DNA of 27,678 bases from a virus (taxonomy: Duplodnaviria; Heunggongvirae; Uroviricota; Caudoviricetes), in the IMG/VR virus record IMGVR_UViG_2698536372_000020; one strand, given 5' to 3'. Position 1 is the first letter of the stretch, and every line of letters begins with the position of its first letter. Of this stretch, positions 18,417 to 26,523 are shown in pieces. The translations under genes were made by a program, and so were the position numbers. The notes beneath the pieces were generated by a model. It was not told the origin of the DNA and made no database searches. It was given only the letters and a program-made list of their open reading frames with translations.

Positions 18417-18623
18417 CTTCATTTTCACTTTTTTAAATCCAACGACAGACGGCTGGCATTTAAGTATTGTGAAATATTATCAAATGTAATCATCATTGAT
18501 TTACAAAAGATACATTTTGCCCCGAAAGGATTCATGTCAGAAACATCAAAAGATGATGTTCTATACTGGGAACCATGACAACACGGGCATCTAAAGTGAA
18601 TATGGTTTGTAATATTGTCTACC

Positions 18624-18836
18624 TCAAAGCGCCACTACATGAACAGCGGCAGGACCTTTAGGTCCGTTCTCAATACCAAATTCAACTTCCTGATTCTCAG
18701 TTAATGTTTTGAAATCGTTGCTCTGAATTGCTGAGAAATGGACAAACACATCTTTGCTGCCATCTTTCGGCGTGATGAAACCAAAACCTTTTTCAGGGTT
18801 AAACCATTTCACTAAACCAGTCATTTTGTTAGACAT
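18624..18836 (-). CDS. cspI: Cold-shock protein, CspA family
   Basis: 70-aa [73 protein letters not shown] with RNP1/RNP2-type motifs; long 5' leader typical of csp genes; matches CspI as recalled. Confidence 0.9.
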
Positions 18837-19198
18837 AATTATTACCTTTTGAAGAAATTAGCCCTTGGGCAGAATGGTCCGAAAAAAAATATCAGAGAGA
18901 AAAACCAACAAGGAAATCTCAAGAGGTACAAATAATAAAATTATAACAATGACTGCTTCAGATAAATTTGTAACAAACCAGAACACCATTAACGCATGAT
19001 TAACCACCCATAGCAAGGATTACTTTTGTAAAGAAAAACACAGCAATGAAAGAATAGCTTTATTTATTAATAAAACGTGTCATTCTGATTAAGACCTTTT
19101 ATCTTACCCTTAAGATTTCAGGAATTTTGGCTCATGGAAGAGTCCTTTTTATTTAAATTTTACATTCCGCGATGTAAATGTTCCGATTTAATATTACC

Positions 19199-21226: not shown

Positions 21227-21507
21227 GAGATTGTGGTGCTTTTTGTGGGAGTCATCCACTTACGCACTTTGTTTTGCGATGCCAGCAGTTAGCTTCTGCT
21301 GTGAAACTATTCATGCAGCAAACCTGCACTTCACCACAATGGTTAGCATACTTTTCCTGATTAAGATTTTGCCAAATATGCTAGCCATTGTTTCATGTAT
21401 TGGACCTCCTTACTTTTTATTAAAGAGATCCAATATTCACTACTCTGTCCGTATCTCTACTCAGGCATCAGCCTTCTTCGTTATCGTATACAGACGAGCG
21501 ATGAATT

Positions 21508-21723
21508 TTAATCAGTAATGATGACATTTGCTGCTGCAGGACCTTTAGCACCTCTCTCTATAGAGAAGGTAACCTTTTGACCTTCAAATAAGGTTCGATA
21601 ATTATCATTCTGAATCGCAGAAAAATGCACAAACACATCTTTACTACCATCAACAGGAGAAATAAAGCCGAAACCTTTATCAGCGTTAAACCATTTTACT
21701 AAACCAGTCATTTTATTTGACAT
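21508..21723 (-). CDS. cspB: Cold-shock protein, CspA family
   Basis: 71-aa [74 protein letters not shown]; matches CspB as recalled; divergent from cspF. Confidence 0.9.
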
Positions 21724-22023
21724 TCTACATTCCTTAACTTGAGCCTTTCGGCATAAATGGTTTGCATAACAGAAACGACTTCGTACTTAATTGGAGAGAC
21801 TCAAAGAAGGAATAAGTGAATAACACCTGAAATGAGAACTGCTTTAGTAAACTACTTCGTATATCGTCTGTTCTTCAAACCGACGCAATCATTAACGCAT
21901 AGTTGAACATATGAAGCAATGTTTATTTTAGACATCCAGCCATCTTCAACCCCATCAAAAAACTATAGCTTTCTTCAGGAACGTGTGTATAGTGCGCCAA
22001 GTTATCAGTATTAAGGAATTTTT

Positions 22024-23423: not shown

Positions 23424-24512
23424 TTACGCCAGTACGCCAATTGCCAGCGCGCGATCGATAAAACGAAATATCAGCTCCAGTTGGGAGCCATACTTATCTT
23501 CAAATGCCACTGTATCCGTATGCAGCTCGTTGTGATGCTTTCTGCACAAAGGCAACACAAAGAGATCATGTGCTTTTGTTCCCATTCCGCCCTGCCCGTG
23601 ACCAATCAGATGATGCGGATCGTCGGCTGGCATACCGCAGCAAGCACACGGCTGTGTCTTAACCCAACGTGTGTATTTCTCCTTAACCCAGCGGCGACGT
23701 TTAGGCAGCTTCATGAAAGATTCCGGAGACTCTGGATCAACGGTGATGCTTACCACCGTCTTTTCCTGTGGTGATTTTTGTTGCTGGTGGGCGTAAGGCA
23801 ACGGTGCAAGATTTTTTGTGCGTTGTTTCAATATGCTGGTGGCGGTCTGCTCTCCCGGTACGATGTCGCTTTCGCGGTACACCGAGCAGATTTTTTCCGC
23901 TGGTAATCCCAGCGAACGACGCGATACAGCCTCAGGTAGTGCATCCACCACCTGATTGCAGACCGCCCACCAGGATAATTCAGCCAAAGATAATTCCCGC
24001 TCCTGCGTACCGCTTATTGCGTGACGGATGACGTCAATCACCCATGCTGTCAGATTTTGTTGAGCAAGCAGCTCCAGTGATTCCGATGTCTGGTCACGCA
24101 GTTGGTTGTCGCAGTGCCAGCACAACACCATTGCGCCGGTACCATAACGGTGAATGACTGTTTCAGTGTGATGGTAATCGCCATTAGGCCACTGGCAGGA
24201 TGTAACATGACGTAATAGCCAGTCGGACAATGCGCCAACGCCGCCAGCAGCACGAATCACCCGTTCGTTACTAAAAAACGGCAGCAATGTTTTGTCTTCC
24301 GCCAGCGGCTGGCGAACGGCAGGAACGACTCCGGATGGCAGATTACGCATGCTTTTTGGTTCCGGTTCCACCAGCACTCGAGGATTATGAAATATCTGTA
24401 TGGATTCACGGCCCGGCTTAAGGACCACCAGCCCAAGCTCAGGCACCAGAACAGGTCTAAGTAATACCCGCACGTTACCTCCAGATCCGTTGCTGGAAAG
24501 TGCGGGACGCAC
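23424..24512 (-). CDS. ydfU: HNH-nuclease-like protein (DUF968 type), YdfU-like
   Basis: C-terminal motif CACCGMPADDPHHLIGHGQGGMGTKAHDLFVLPLCRKHHNELH resembles an HNH nuclease motif. Start uncertain: ATG 24512 overlaps the upstream ORF by 38 nt; internal Met at 24350 is an alternative. Confidence 0.65.
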   Translation of the reverse strand: MRPALSSNGSGGNVRVLLRPVLVPELGLVVLKPGRESIQIFHNPRVLVEPEPKSMRNLPSGVVPAVRQPLAEDKTLLPFFSNERVIRAAGGVGALSDWLLRHVTSCQWPNGDYHHTETVIHRYGTGAMVLCWHCDNQLRDQTSESLELLAQQNLTAWVIDVIRHAISGTQERELSLAELSWWAVCNQVVDALPEAVSRRSLGLPAEKICSVYRESDIVPGEQTATSILKQRTKNLAPLPYAHQQQKSPQEKTVVSITVDPESPESFMKLPKRRRWVKEKYTRWVKTQPCACCGMPADDPHHLIGHGQGGMGTKAHDLFVLPLCRKHHNELHTDTVAFEDKYGSQLELIFRFIDRALAIGVLA

Positions 24513-24753
24513 GTGGTGGGCGTTCGGAATAAGGCAGCCTGACAGAGATTATCCAGTGCCGATAGTCGAGACTGAGAGCTTTCTTAACCTCGAACCCGCG
24601 CCTGCGGTAAGAATGAATCAGCCATTCGGCCTGTTCTGCAGTGCATGGAGGGTGCTGGAACCATTCAGACTTGAATGCGTGAGAATACCGCCCGTGCGTG
24701 CAGGCAAGAACGGGCGAATTATCAGAATTGTAATATTTTGCGTTGCGTGCCAT
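24475..24753 (-). CDS. Hypothetical 92-aa protein between the rem-like gene and the HNH-like gene
   Basis: ORF from the track (MARNAKYYNSDNSPVLACTHGRYSHAFKSEWFQHPPCTAEQAEWLIHSYRRRGFEVKK...); different frame from ydfU; could be a separate gene or a frameshifted N-terminal piece. Confidence 0.4.
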   Translation of the reverse strand: MARNAKYYNSDNSPVLACTHGRYSHAFKSEWFQHPPCTAEQAEWLIHSYRRRGFEVKKALSLDYRHWIISVRLPYSERPPRASRTFQQRIWR

Positions 24754-24819
24754 CGGTTTTCTCCGGTGGCACGGTGTTACTCAGCGGGAGTTCAGCCCCG
24801 CGCAAGATTGTAGATGAGT

Positions 24820-25071
24820 TTATTCTCCTGAAAAAGCAGAAAAGCCAGCTTTTATTCCGATCTCTTTCAATGCCTGTAATGAAGTGACAAACTCACCTTC
24901 GCGCAAGATAAATCCGTCCGTGACCCGAGCATCCACAAAATTAATTAACGCAGCCCCATTCTTTCGCAAACACATAATGCGGTAATGACTAACAAGATTT
25001 CCATTTTCAACGCACACAGCATAGAGGCCATCTTCACAAAAAATTTTACGCAGTTCTTCGATGTTCATCAT
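24820..25071 (-). CDS. rem: Rem-like protein, 83 aa
   Basis: ORF MMNIEELRKIFCEDGLYAVCVENGNLVSHYRIMCLRKNGAALINFVDARVTDGFILREGEFVTSLQALKEIGIKAGFSAFSGE; GGAAGGA SD; in the position and of the size of Qin rem as recalled. Confidence 0.65.
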   Translation of the reverse strand: MMNIEELRKIFCEDGLYAVCVENGNLVSHYRIMCLRKNGAALINFVDARVTDGFILREGEFVTSLQALKEIGIKAGFSAFSGE

Positions 25072-25191
25072 CAGAATCCTTCCGGATAATTAGCTCTCCC
25101 CTTTAAGGGACCATCCCTCTTATCCCTGCGCGCTACTTAAGTATTTTTGATTCTATTCCGGCACCGTCCAGAACTTCAAACGCGTTGAAAA

Positions 25192-25219
25192 TAAAAACAA
25201 AAACCCGCCGAAGCGGGTT
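25192..25219 (-). terminator. Intrinsic terminator ending the relB-relE-hokD operon
   Basis: Minus strand: 7-bp stem AACCCGC / GCGGGTT with UUCG-type loop followed by TTTTTGTTTTTATTTT, about 70 nt after the hokD stop. Confidence 0.6.
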
Positions 25220-25287
25220 AAGTGCGGGTGCGTTGAGGATGCCTGCCACATCAGAGGTGGCGAGGGATTTCTCCCCCGCCGGGTCTC

Positions 25288-25443
25288 TTACTCCTCAGGT
25301 TCGTAAGCTGTGAAGACAGCGACCTCCGTCTGGCCGGTTCGGATTCGTACCTCGCAGAGGTCTTTCCTCGTTACCAGTGCCGTCACTATGACGGTTAAAC
25401 AGATGACGATCAGGGCGATTAACATCGCCTTTTGCTGCTTCAT
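25288..25443 (-). CDS. hokD: Hok-family type I toxin (HokD/RelF), 51 aa; not in the ORF track
   Basis: Reverse-complement translation MKQQKAMLIALIVICLTVIVTALVTRKDLCEVRIRTGQTEVAVFTAYEPEE, ATG 25443, stop 25288-25290; single transmembrane helix; matches HokD as recalled. Confidence 0.9.
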   Translation of the reverse strand: MKQQKAMLIALIVICLTVIVTALVTRKDLCEVRIRTGQTEVAVFTAYEPEE

Positions 25444-25514
25444 AGCCTGCTTCTCCTGTCAACGCAAAGCAGAAGTGTCACCTTCGGTGCGAAACAGAGA
25501 TGTCATGCTTTGGT

Positions 25515-25802
25515 TCAGAGAATGCGTTTGACCGCCTCGCTATATACTTCCGAGCGTTCTCTTTTCCCAACAGAAATCACGAAAACGACAACTTTCTCGT
25601 CTATAACCTGGTATACAAGGCGATAGCCTGAAGACCGGAGCTTAATCTTGTAACAATCAGGCATACCACGGAGCTTGTTTGCTTCAATCCGGGGTGACTC
25701 AAGTACTTCAACCAGCTTCTTTTTCAACTGTTCACGTACCGTCGAGCCCAGCTTTCGCCATTCCTTTAGTGCCCGCTCGTCAAAATCCAGAAAATACGCC
25801 AT
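25515..25802 (-). CDS. relE: RelE toxin (ribosome-dependent mRNA interferase)
   Basis: 95-aa ORF MAYFLDFDERALKEWRKLGSTVREQLKKKLVEVLESPRIEANKLRGMPDCYKIKLRSSGYRLVYQVIDEKVVVFVISVGKRERSEVYSEAVKRIL; ATGA overlap with the relB stop. Confidence 0.95.
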   Translation of the reverse strand: MAYFLDFDERALKEWRKLGSTVREQLKKKLVEVLESPRIEANKLRGMPDCYKIKLRSSGYRLVYQVIDEKVVVFVISVGKRERSEVYSEAVKRIL

Positions 25803-26041
25803 CAGAGTTCATCCAGCGTCACACGTACTGGCTTAGGATTACGAAGCCGTTCTTTCACTATCTCCACAAGTTCAGCATCTTCATCACTCAGGAGTGTCTG
25901 TTTGAACGGCAAGCGTTCATTGTCAGCGATATACTCGAGCATGAGACGAAGCGCTTCAGAAGGAGTTACACCCATTTTTTCAAGCGCGGCGTAAGAACGC
26001 GCTTTAAGTTCATCGTCAATACGCAGGTTAATGCTACCCAT
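25802..26041 (-). CDS. relB: RelB antitoxin
   Basis: 79-aa ORF MGSINLRIDDELKARSYAALEKMGVTPSEALRLMLEYIADNERLPFKQTLLSDEDAELVEIVKERLRNPKPVRVTLDEL; GAGGTG SD; directly upstream of relE. Confidence 0.95.
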   Translation of the reverse strand: MGSINLRIDDELKARSYAALEKMGVTPSEALRLMLEYIADNERLPFKQTLLSDEDAELVEIVKERLRNPKPVRVTLDEL

Positions 26042-26053
26042 GTCTTACACCTC

Positions 26054-26078
26054 TTGTAATTACAAATGTCATTACAAG
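26054..26078. promoter_or_regulatory. relBE operator-like palindromes (relO) in the promoter region
   Basis: Perfect 12-bp palindrome TTGTAATTACAA (26054-26065) followed by a related half-site repeat TGTCATTACAAG, immediately upstream of the relB start. Confidence 0.6.
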
Positions 26079-26371
26079 TATCGCACTACAACATGCTTAG
26101 GGCAAGTCACGAAGGAAGTCAGAAAGTAGTCGTAAGAACGGTGATCACTGTCCGCTTTGTGCCAGGAGCAGCCATTGCTAAGTCCATCCTGTATTGTGCA
26201 GGTCAGCTCGTTTTTAAAGAGTCCGGCCATCATCTTACTGGTACAGACACCATATACTTTGTGACGGTCAGGCTACATATGCACAACTCAACTTATTCAT
26301 CTATTTTTTGCTTTAGCATGTCAGTGTTGCTTTCTCGTCGGCGGGTGAGCGGTGACCTGACCTGTCGATAA
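26066..26371 (+). CDS. Hypothetical 101-aa ORF divergent from relB (YdfV-like by size and position); coding status uncertain
   Basis: ORF from the track; ATG lies within the operator palindromes and has no obvious SD. Confidence 0.3.
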   Translation: MSLQVSHYNMLRASHEGSQKVVVRTVITVRFVPGAAIAKSILYCAGQLVFKESGHHLTGTDTIYFVTVRLHMHNSTYSSIFCFSMSVLLSRRRVSGDLTCR

Positions 26372-26523
26372 AGGAACGTAGCACGTTTTATGCAACACCC
26401 GCATGCGGCAGAAAATTATTGCCGAACGTTTACCCCTGTCAACAAGCTTTACTTTCTGAGGCGCGCCAGCCCGCGAGGAAAACAATCTGAACATCAAACA
26501 ATTAATGACACAAGAAATACGAT

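What the first reader, a model, noticed from the sequence alone, without database searches (positions are those of the whole stretch)
25192..26078. One operon encoding two unrelated toxins (RelE and Hok-family HokD) under a single antitoxin and operator
relB, relE and a 51-aa Hok-family toxin gene are co-oriented, separated by an ATGA overlap and a 71-nt spacer, bounded by operator palindromes upstream and a strong terminator downstream. It sits in the nin-like region upstream of Q, where it could affect prophage maintenance or superinfection outcome. No separate antisense RNA for hokD is evident to me in the sequence.
Basis: partly seen in the sequence, partly recalled or inferred. Interest (0 to 1): 0.45.

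Follow-up and report, generated by a model that had tools for sequence, protein, structure and literature searches.

The report
Known relB-relE-hokD (relBEF) prophage operon
This is the long-known relB-relE-hokD operon of the E. coli Qin-type prophage, base-for-base identical to the laboratory strain K-12, so nothing in the flagged stretch itself is new.

Summary
The genes are real, all on the minus strand. They are relB 25802-26041, relE 25515-25802 and hokD 25288-25443. The relO operator lies at 26054-26077 and a terminator at 25193-25219. One detail is wrong: relB and relE overlap by one base (TGATG), not ATGA.

Window 23849-26380 is identical at every base to E. coli K-12 MG1655 (Qin prophage, b1562-b1564).

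Published northern blots in K-12 show one relBEF transcript from the relB promoter.

hokD is a 5'-truncated hok/sok locus. Only 14 nt upstream of its ATG (including the ribosome-binding site), the ORF and the 3' UTR remain. The hok promoter, the tac/ucb elements, the mok start, the Sok target and the sok gene are replaced by relBE.

This truncation is already in the literature (hokD inactivated by a genomic rearrangement; relBE integration shortened the ancestral hokD/mok ORF).

RelB can control hokD only as a transcriptional repressor. Nothing indicates it neutralises HokD protein.

Side observation: relBE is a sharply bounded unit of about 715 bp, found in many species. In 15 of 26 copies its right end abuts hok-locus DNA, involving several hok alleles and both orientations.

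Verdict: already known, low interest.

The parts
26054..26077 (-). relO operator: two adjacent 12-bp half-sites (minus strand TTGTAATGACAT + TTGTAATTACAA), containing four [A/T]TGT[A/C]A hexads
   Evidence: Sequence read; repeats D5 and I5; exact match to the mutationally and footprint-defined relO of K-12 (PMC2812701).
26077..26105 (-). Probable relBE promoter: -35 TTGCCC (26105..26100), 17-nt spacer, -10 GATACT (26082..26077), overlapping relO
   Evidence: Read from the sequence. It matches 8 of 12 consensus positions, so it falls below the 9 of 12 threshold of the promoter scan. The position agrees with the published statement that relO spans about -10 to +17. The hexamer assignment is inferred.
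25802..26041 (-). relB, 79-aa ribbon-helix-helix antitoxin and autorepressor
   Evidence: ORF; Pfam RelB E=1e-32; identical to K-12 b1564.
25515..25802 (-). relE, 95-aa ribosome-dependent mRNA endonuclease toxin; its ATG shares one base with the relB stop (TGATG)
   Evidence: ORF; Pfam ParE_toxin E=2e-13; full-length match to PDB RelE chains 4FXE, 4V7J and 4V7K; identical to K-12 b1563.
25457..25514 (-). 58-nt non-coding tail of the relBE unit, ending ...CTTCTGCTTTGCGTTGACA; its last base, 25457, is the breakpoint with hok-derived DNA
   Evidence: Homology to complete hok loci stops here. relBE units in other species end at the same base, followed by unrelated DNA. Column conservation drops from 0.81-0.93 to 0.43.
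25444..25456 (-). Retained hok leader remnant: Shine-Dalgarno GGAG (25456..25453) plus a 9-nt spacer to the ATG
   Evidence: Identical in complete hokD/hokW-type loci (alignment A1). Predicted unpaired probability of the four SD bases in the full-length mRNA model is 0.09-0.40.
25288..25443 (-). hokD (relF), 51-aa Hok/Gef-family membrane toxin ORF
   Evidence: ORF; Pfam HOK_GEF E=1e-23; identical to K-12 b1562; toxic when overexpressed according to the literature.
25302..25305 (-). TACG motif at the Tyr47 codon (TAC 25305..25303): published TadA A-to-I editing site, Tyr to Cys, called position 46 in the papers' alignment numbering
   Evidence: Sequence read; editing of hokD mRNA in K-12 reported at about 6% (PMC5630033; PMC12214031).
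25224..25238 (-). fbi (fold-back inhibition) element of the hok 3' UTR, CCUCAACGCACCCGC, now without its 5' tac partner
   Evidence: In a complete locus (L002) the minimum-free-energy fold pairs this element with the 5' end GCGGGUGCUUGAGG (z=-7.8). That 5' sequence is absent from the window. In the full-length relBEF model no partner exceeds probability 0.47.
25193..25219 (-). Intrinsic terminator of hokD and hence of the whole relBEF transcript
   Evidence: stem 25219..25202 AACCCGCTTCGGCGGGTT followed by TTTGTTTTTA.
25457..26171 (-). The whole horizontally moving relBE unit (about 715 bp: promoter, operator, relB, relE, 58-nt tail; no terminator of its own)
   Evidence: 83-99% identity inside these limits across 12 distinct unit sequences, with 15 different left flanks and at least 12 different right flanks. 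Column conservation is 0.87-0.99 inside and 0.39-0.51 outside.

Best explanation
The region is the relBEF operon of a Qin-type lambdoid prophage.

relB and relE form a canonical type II toxin-antitoxin pair. RelB dimers, with RelE as co-repressor, bind the four hexads of relO and repress the promoter. When RelB is lost or RelE is in excess, transcription rises. This part is shown in K-12, and the sequence here is identical.

The relBE unit carries no terminator, so transcription runs on through hokD to the hok terminator, giving one mRNA of about 0.88 kb (shown in K-12).

hokD is what remains of a complete hokW/sokW-type type I locus after its 5' half was replaced by the relBE unit. The replaced half held the hok promoter, the tac and ucb elements, the mok ribosome-binding site and start, the Sok target and the sok gene. 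This is shown here by alignment and by the covariance-model search.

It follows that:
1. hokD has no RNA antitoxin and cannot be regulated by Sok RNAs made elsewhere in the genome, because the Sok target region is gone.
2. Its only control is transcriptional, through RelB/RelE at relO, plus whatever limits its translation.
3. RelB is not an antitoxin for HokD protein.

I infer that HokD is translated poorly from this mRNA. Hok translation normally depends on coupling to mok translation, and the mok start is missing here. The hokD ribosome-binding site is also predicted to be mostly base-paired. hokD therefore behaves as a largely silent passenger whose 3' UTR supplies the terminator of the operon. 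That last step is inference, not shown.
For: - Identity: window 23849-26380 equals MG1655 without a single mismatch. The annotated K-12 context is rem-hokD-relE-relB-ydfV-flxA.
- Families: Pfam RelB, ParE_toxin (RelE) and HOK_GEF; RelE structures in the PDB.
- Operator: exact relO.
- Single transcript from PrelBEF, with the relF part accumulating after mRNA cleavage: PMC3598666. Co-transcription with the 71-nt spacer is also tabulated in PMC5120126.
- Truncation: no sok hit in the window at E<=10, against 112.7-120.5 bits immediately upstream of hokD in three complete loci. Alignment A1 shows identity starting at AGGAGAAGCAGGCTATG. BLAST hits to hok-only loci end at window 25457.
- K-12 sokC lies 49-107 nt upstream of the hokC ATG, a region that hokD lacks.
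- Published statements: hokD inactivated by genomic rearrangement and lacking canonical components (PMC12214031; PMC5630033); relBE integration shortened the ancestral roughly 70-codon ORF (PMC6379469).
- Predicted pairing of the ribosome-binding site: unpaired probability 0.09-0.40.
- Decay of hok downstream of relBE in other lineages: the ribosome-binding site is lost in L023 and L034, the ORF is truncated in L021 and L038, and an IS sits in the 3' UTR in L008.
Against: - Whether native HokD is made was not tested here, and I found no paper that measures it.
- The hokD ORF and its ribosome-binding site are intact and identical in the 1162 complete E. coli genomes that carry the whole locus at 80% coverage or more.
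- hokD mRNA is present, is edited at the Tyr-to-Cys site and is induced in mixed biofilms.
- HokD is toxic when overexpressed.
- The start codon is predicted to be accessible (unpaired probability 0.79-0.92).
- The local hairpin that would mask the ribosome-binding site is no more stable than shuffled sequence (z=0.12) and is not conserved in diverged relBE units. The structural argument for poor translation is therefore weak.
- The recurrence of relBE-hok junctions in other species could mean that the arrangement is selected.
Confidence: 0.9

Rival explanations
1. hokD is a working second toxin whose expression was deliberately re-wired. With Sok and Mok control removed, HokD synthesis is tied to relBE derepression (RelB loss under stress or phage attack) or to read-through from the prophage early-right operon on induction. 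It then acts as a membrane-damaging back-up for abortive infection, prophage retention or lysis timing, as reported for the complete hokW-sokW locus of prophage Sp5.
For: - The ORF, ribosome-binding site and 3' UTR are perfectly conserved in 1162 genomes, and the locus is also present in a deposited 48.7-kb phage genome (PhiR42_1).
- The relF part of the mRNA is the most abundant fragment after toxin-induced cleavage.
- HokD is toxic on overexpression.
- hokW-sokW speeds growth arrest and doubles phage release after induction (PMC8621323).
- relBE is followed at the same point by hok ORFs of several alleles in 13 of 80 species-level loci.
- relBEF is co-oriented with the replication-to-Q transcription direction.
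Against: - There is no direct evidence of HokD protein from the native locus.
- Hok translation normally needs mok coupling, which is gone.
- Several relBE-hok copies elsewhere have lost the ribosome-binding site or part of the ORF.
- The literature treats hokD as inactive.
- The conservation in E. coli may only reflect the recent spread of one prophage segment.
Confidence: 0.25
2. A Sok-like antisense RNA, or another dedicated hokD regulator, is still present but too diverged to be recognised, so hokD remains a normal type I toxin-antitoxin system embedded in the operon.
For: Only the general expectation that an unregulated hok gene would be lethal. The promoter scan is crude: it even missed the known relB promoter.
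Against: - The whole region homologous to mok, sok and the Sok target is physically absent, not diverged.
- No Rfam sok match at E<=10.
- No promoter-like site on the antisense strand in 25288-25520.
- Deleting PrelBEF abolishes the induced relF signal in K-12, and no relF-specific small RNA is reported.
Confidence: 0.03
3. hokD is retained only because its structured 3' UTR and terminator end and stabilise the relBE transcript, which has no terminator of its own. The coding sequence itself is neutral.
For: - The relBE unit ends 58 nt after relE without a terminator in every context examined, in line with PMC5120126.
- The hok 3' UTR folds strongly (z=-3.4 for the relE-stop-to-terminator segment).
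- The relF-containing 3' fragments are the most stable part of the mRNA.
Against: - About 11 of 26 relBE units are followed by unrelated DNA and evidently persist.
- In plasmid L008 an IS removed the hok 3' UTR and terminator while relBE stayed intact.
- A neutral ORF would be expected to accumulate changes, yet within E. coli it has not. Recent spread could also explain that.
Confidence: 0.3

Closest known systems
relBEF (relB-relE-relF/hokD) operon of the Qin cryptic prophage, E. coli K-12 (b1564-b1562)
   Same: Everything: 100% nucleotide identity over window 23849-26380, including promoter, relO, all three ORFs, the 71-nt spacer, the 3' UTR and the terminator. The neighbours are also the same: rem, ydfU and ydfT/Q on one side, ydfV and flxA on the other.
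   Different: Only the wider setting. Here the segment sits in a larger prophage with a full set of head, tail and terminase genes, 100% identical to E. coli O26:H11 str. 11368, rather than in the 20-kb K-12 remnant.
hokW-sokW type I toxin-antitoxin locus of Stx2 prophage Sp5 (E. coli O157:H7 Sakai) and the equivalent complete 'hokD' loci of other lambdoid prophages
   Same: - Same Hok peptide (WP_000813254 in L002 and L003), ribosome-binding site, 3' UTR with the fbi element, and terminator: 98-99% nucleotide identity over window 25100/25193-25457.
- Same position upstream of rem/ydfU/Q.
- Both published hokW primers match those complete loci: YO-349 matches L002 and YO-350 matches L003.
   Different: The complete loci keep about 175 nt upstream holding the hok promoter, tac, ucb, the mok start, the Sok target and sok (Rfam sok 113-120 bits). 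In the window all of this is replaced by relBE.
hok/sok of plasmid R1 (the paradigm type I system)
   Same: Hok/Gef-family toxin. The 3' fbi element followed by a terminator is retained.
   Different: No mok, no Sok, no tac/ucb switch and no promoter of its own, so the defining post-transcriptional control and post-segregational killing logic cannot operate. The protein is only about 40-45% identical.
mazEFG, and other type II toxin-antitoxin operons that co-transcribe the next gene because the mobile unit has no terminator
   Same: Same architectural reason for a third cistron (PMC5120126).
   Different: Here the passenger is itself a toxin gene from another toxin-antitoxin type.

Membership tests
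RelBE type II toxin-antitoxin system (E. coli relBE) | Antitoxin of the RelB ribbon-helix-helix family encoded first | tested here: met
   Pfam PF04221 RelB, E=1e-32, covering residues 1-79; identical to K-12 RelB.
RelBE type II toxin-antitoxin system (E. coli relBE) | RelE/ParE-superfamily toxin immediately downstream, overlapping or abutting the antitoxin gene | tested here: met
   Pfam PF05016, E=2e-13; full-length match to PDB RelE chains 4FXE, 4V7J and 4V7K, E about 1e-57; 1-nt TGATG overlap.
RelBE type II toxin-antitoxin system (E. coli relBE) | Autoregulatory operator relO with four [A/T]TGT[A/C]A hexads overlapping the promoter | tested here: met
   Exact TTGTAATGACAT + TTGTAATTACAA at 26077..26054 compared with PMC2812701.
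RelBE type II toxin-antitoxin system (E. coli relBE) | RelB degraded by Lon; conditional cooperativity; ribosome-dependent mRNA cleavage by RelE | not testable with these tools
   Taken from the K-12 literature. It applies through sequence identity.
[quoted passage not shown] | Hok/Gef-family small membrane toxin ORF | tested here: met
   Pfam PF01848 HOK_GEF, E=1e-23.
[quoted passage not shown] | Sok antisense RNA gene with its promoter, complementary to the mok translation-initiation region | tested here: not met
   No Rfam RF01794 hit at E<=10 in 24800-26400, against 112.7-120.5 bits in L002-L004. The homologous DNA is absent. No antisense promoter-like site was found.
[quoted passage not shown] | Overlapping mok reading frame with its own start and ribosome-binding site, to which hok translation is coupled | tested here: not met
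   Only a 55-codon remnant, opening at TTG 25462 inside the relBE tail, with no ribosome-binding site upstream. That it is the mok frame was not checked. The upstream part of the leader is replaced. Published as a shortening of the ancestral ORF.
[quoted passage not shown] | Own promoter and the 5' tac/ucb elements that pair with the 3' fbi element | tested here: not met
   The tac sequence GCGGGUGCUUGAGG is present and pairs with fbi in L002 but is absent from the window. fbi has no dominant partner in the relBEF model.
[quoted passage not shown] | 3' UTR with the fbi element and an intrinsic terminator | tested here: met
   Window 25193-25287 is 98-100% identical to complete loci; terminator.
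Transposable element or mobile insertion cassette (considered for the ~715-bp relBE unit) | Terminal inverted repeats and target-site duplications at the ends | tested here: inconclusive
   - The ends are sharp.
- A gapped similarity can be seen by eye between the left end TGGCACAAAGCGGACAGTGATCACC and the reverse complement of the right end, TGTCAACGCAAAGCAGAAGTGTCACC. It was not found by the gapless repeat finder and was not tested statistically.
- No consistent target-site duplication was seen in 12 contexts.
- One pair of junctions (L011 and L020) is what a 15-bp duplication with insertion in both orientations would give, but the matching left junctions were not found.

The most novel reading that the evidence does not exclude
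The ~715-bp relBE unit (window 25457-26171) may be a mobile cassette whose conserved right end (...CTGCTTTGCGTTGACA) preferentially joins the translation-initiation region of hok loci.

This would repeatedly create hybrid type II/type I modules, in which a Hok toxin stripped of Mok and Sok control is expressed only when RelB repression is lifted. The K-12/Qin relBEF operon would then be one instance of a recurrent, possibly selected design rather than a one-off accident.

The general idea that relBE integrated into hokD is already published. The precise ends, the multiple hok alleles and the inverted junction are, as far as I could find, not.
Probability: 0.25. Interest if true: 0.5.

Novelty: already known. 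Interest (0 to 1): 0.1.

Why it matters
For the finding as written, it matters little. relBEF has been studied since the 1980s, and the sequence here is identical to the studied one.

The practical point is a caution. hokD is annotated as a 'type I toxin-antitoxin system toxin', but it has no RNA antitoxin and no mok. Deleting or derepressing relBE therefore necessarily changes hokD transcription as well.

If the side observation holds, it would give a concrete case of one toxin-antitoxin module rewiring another. It would also offer a handle on how bare type II toxin-antitoxin units move between genomes.

Tried and rejected
1. Hidden Sok. I ran Rfam at the gathering threshold and at E<=10, a promoter scan and an alignment to complete loci. 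Nothing was found, because the region is physically absent.

2. Anti-SD hairpin. In the full-length model the 3' end of relE (25506-25525) pairs with 25449-25471, including the hokD ribosome-binding site, with probability 0.5-0.8. This suggested relE-to-hokD translational coupling. I rejected it as unsupported. The 97-nt hairpin is no more stable than shuffles (z=0.12), and the pairing breaks without compensation in diverged relBE units L039, L042 and L044.

3. A substitute tac element. UGCGUUGA at 25466..25459 is perfectly complementary to the fbi element, and it closes the hokD segment in a partial-transcript fold. Only 0.5% of shuffled spacers reach 8 nt. However, the 8-mer belongs to the conserved end of the relBE unit whether or not hok follows. 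The pairing disappears in the full-length model, and the R1-type hok 3' UTR fused in L007 shows no matching fbi sequence. I left this unexplained and do not claim it.

4. Integron attC reading of the 58-nt tail. The R''/R' core sites fit poorly (TCTGAAC and GTTGACA against RYYYAAC and GTTRRRY). The homology boundary lies after TTGACA rather than after the G, and the contexts are not integrons.

5. The isrK hit (25.1 bits against a threshold of 50). It recurs in complete hok loci and is driven by the 3' stem-loops and terminator. I did not pursue it.

6. Evidence for native HokD protein. Literature searches found only overexpression, tagged constructs and mRNA data.

7. The MMBR review PMC2593563 is not held in the library.
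Full report
**What is there**

All features lie on the minus strand.
- ORF listing and direct reading give relB 25802..26041 (79 aa), relE 25515..25802 (95 aa) and hokD 25288..25443 (51 aa).
- Pfam assigns them to RelB (E=1e-32), the ParE/RelE toxin family (E=2e-13) and HOK_GEF (E=1e-23).
- RelE matches the solved E. coli RelE chains over its whole length.
- Upstream of relB, 26054..26077 carries two adjacent 12-bp palindromic half-sites (D5 and I5).
- Downstream of hokD, a 7-pair G+C-rich stem (25219..25202) is followed by a T-run.

**Comparison with K-12**

- A megablast of 25100-26200 against 5426 complete E. coli genomes found 100.0% identity over all 1101 nt in K-12-type chromosomes, with the annotation hokD, relE, relB, ydfV. 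The complete locus is present in 1162 genomes.
- I fetched NC_000913.3 directly and extended the exact match. Window 23849..26380 is identical to MG1655 without one mismatch.
- The neighbours are those of the Qin prophage: rem, ydfU and the Q-like antiterminator ydfT on one side, ydfV and flxA on the other.
- The window as a whole is 100% identical to a large composite prophage of E. coli O26:H11 str. 11368 and related strains. The setting is therefore a fuller prophage than the K-12 remnant, but the locus is the same.

**What is already shown for this sequence**

- The operator is exactly the published relO: half-sites TTGTAATGACAT and TTGTAATTACAA, four [A/T]TGT[A/C]A hexads, bound cooperatively by RelB2-RelE (PMC2812701).
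- In K-12, probes for relB, relE and relF detect one full-length transcript. Induction disappears when the relBEF promoter is deleted. After cleavage by several toxins the relF part is the most abundant fragment (PMC3598666).
- Co-transcription across the 71-nt spacer is also tabulated in PMC5120126. That paper notes that horizontally moving type II units carry a promoter and operator but no terminator.

**The nature of hokD**

- Most E. coli genomes carry sequences that match only window 25100 or 25193 to 25457, that is hokD and its 3' UTR.
- I fetched three such loci. All have an Rfam sok match of 112.7-120.5 bits directly upstream of hokD. The window has none even at E<=10.
- The alignment shows near-identity from AGGAGAAGCAGGCTATG onward, and no homology upstream of about 25457.
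- In a complete locus the predicted fold closes the mRNA by pairing its 5' end (GCGGGUGCUUGAGG, tac) with CCUCAACGCACCCGC (fbi) near the 3' end (z=-7.8). The window keeps fbi (25224..25238) but not tac.
- The K-12 annotation places sokC 49-107 nt upstream of the hokC ATG, so the Sok target region is also among the lost DNA.
- hokD is therefore a Hok-family toxin gene but not a hok/sok system. It has no promoter, tac/ucb elements, mok start, Sok target or sok.
- The complete relatives correspond to the characterised hokW-sokW locus of prophage Sp5: both published hokW primers match them, YO-349 matching L002 and YO-350 matching L003.

None of this is new. hokD is described as inactivated by a genomic rearrangement that removed canonical components (PMC12214031; PMC5630033, both citing Pedersen and Gerdes 1999). 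PMC6379469 states that integration of relBE shortened the ancestral roughly 70-codon ORF to 51 codons.

**Mechanism**

Shown, in K-12 on identical sequence:
- RelB/RelE autoregulation at relO.
- One mRNA covering the three genes.

Shown here:
- Absence of every hok-specific regulatory element 5' of the ribosome-binding site.

Inferred:
- HokD is translated inefficiently, because mok coupling is gone.
- The GGAG (25456..25453) is predicted to be mostly paired in a model of the full-length mRNA (unpaired probability 0.09-0.40). The AUG, however, is open (0.79-0.92).
- I do not lean on the structure. The local hairpin is no better than shuffled sequence (z=0.12) and is not conserved in diverged relBE units.
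- RelB can only be a transcriptional repressor of hokD. 'Two toxins under a single antitoxin' overstates it.

Whether native HokD is ever made remains open. The mRNA exists and is edited at the TACG Tyr codon (25305..25302). The peptide is toxic when overexpressed. I found no measurement of the native protein.

**Beyond the finding: the relBE unit**

I fetched relE homologues from one genome per species.
- The relBE unit has sharp ends at window 26171 and 25457. Column conservation is 0.87-0.99 inside and 0.39-0.51 outside, across 12 distinct unit sequences.
- There are 15 different left flanks and at least 12 different right flanks. Identity to the window is 83-99%.
- The right end is always ...CTTCTGCTTTGCGTTGACA, 58 nt past the relE stop.
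- Of 26 copies with this end, 13 are followed at once by a hok ORF, one by a hok start remnant (L021) and one by the sok/mok half of a hok locus in inverted orientation (L020, Rfam sok 94.7 bits). The last type is also present at 92% identity in three Citrobacter freundii plasmids.
- The attached Hok proteins include HokD, a HokC-like, a HokE-like and several R1-like alleles. The junctions lie 2 to 14 nt before the ATG.
- Some of these junctions may share one origin and differ through later recombination. L034 is a roughly 90%-identical orthologue of the whole relBE-hokD. The HokE-like and the inverted junctions cannot share that origin.
- The relE 3' end up to the same boundary matches about 640 plasmids at 99% or more.
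- I could not establish the mobility mechanism. I found no clear target duplication, only an untested gapped end similarity, and a left-end hairpin GTCCGCTT(N8)AAGCGGAC in many copies.

I record this as an observation with a modest chance of being a real targeting or selection phenomenon. The basic idea, that relBE integrated into hokD, is already published.

**Verdict**

The feature is already known and is identical to the K-12 locus.

Noticed in passing
window 25457-26171; loci L010-L044: relBE behaves as a sharply bounded unit of about 715 bp (promoter, relO, relB, relE and a 58-nt tail, no terminator). It is found at 83-99% identity in 15 different left-flank and at least 12 different right-flank contexts across Enterobacterales. 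The last roughly 20 nt (CTTCTGCTTTGCGTTGACA) stay nearly invariant even where the unit is only 83% identical.
   Followed up: partly
L011, L013, L016, L019, L023, L034, L038, L007, L008 (right end of the relBE unit, locus position about 1846); L020:1846-2011: In 15 of 26 species-level copies the relBE right end abuts hok-locus DNA. This includes hok ORFs of several alleles (HokD, HokC-like, HokE-like, R1-like) starting 2-14 nt after TTGACA. In L020 it is the sok/mok half in inverted orientation, also seen in three C. freundii plasmids at 92% identity. The L011 and L020 junctions lie exactly 15 bp apart on opposite strands of the same hok ribosome-binding-site-to-ATG segment (GGAGAAGAAGGCCAT).
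   Followed up: partly
window 26066-26371 (+), annotated ydfV in K-12: The ydfV ORF runs across the left boundary of the relBE unit (26171/26172) and overlaps the relB promoter and relO region. It has no Pfam match. It looks like a chimeric ORF created by the junction rather than a conserved gene.
   Followed up: no
window 25459-25466 and 25224-25238 (-): UGCGUUGA at the end of the relBE tail is perfectly complementary to the core of the hokD fbi element. Only 0.5% of shuffled spacers reach 8 nt. The pairing closes the hokD segment in a partial-transcript fold but not in the full-length model. It is unexplained and may be coincidence.
   Followed up: partly
window 25198-25279 (-); L002:2599-2680; L003:2505-2586: There is a sub-threshold Rfam match to isrK, a Salmonella Gifsy-1 prophage Hfq-binding sRNA: 25-27 bits against a threshold of 50. 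It covers the hok 3' UTR stem-loops and terminator and recurs in all hokD/hokW-type loci examined.
   Followed up: no
window 25302-25305 (-): The hokD Tyr47 codon sits in a TACG motif. This is the TadA A-to-I editing site reported for hokC, hokD and hokE, which would recode Tyr to the conserved Cys (about 6% editing for hokD in K-12 according to PMC12214031).
   Followed up: no
window 21492-21884 (-) and 18597-18982 (-): Two full-length matches to the cspA thermoregulator 5' UTR family (161.6 and 112.8 bits). They belong to prophage cold-shock genes downstream of Q (the cspB region in K-12 Qin).
   Followed up: no
L009 (Escherichia phage PhiR42_1, PV340562.1): A deposited 48.7-kb phage genome from E. 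coli ECOR13 carries the identical relB-relE-hokD segment between the replication genes and Q. This was the only one of 50,697 phage records with the whole locus.
   Followed up: no
L007 (Enterobacter IncFII plasmid) and about 640 plasmids: A flxA-ydfV-relB-relE block identical to the prophage segment sits on Enterobacter, Citrobacter and Klebsiella plasmids. There it is joined at the same point to an R1-type hok, with an IS1202-like ISEsa1 next to flxA. Prophage and plasmid copies have evidently exchanged this segment.
   Followed up: partly
left end of the relBE unit, e.g. L010 about 1122-1145; degenerate in the window at 26152-26175: Many copies have a perfect 8-bp hairpin at the left end, GTCCGCTT-CTGGCACA-AAGCGGAC, usually preceded by AAT or AAC in otherwise unrelated flanks. 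In the window the outer arm is changed to GGCTGCTC. Its significance is unknown.
   Followed up: no
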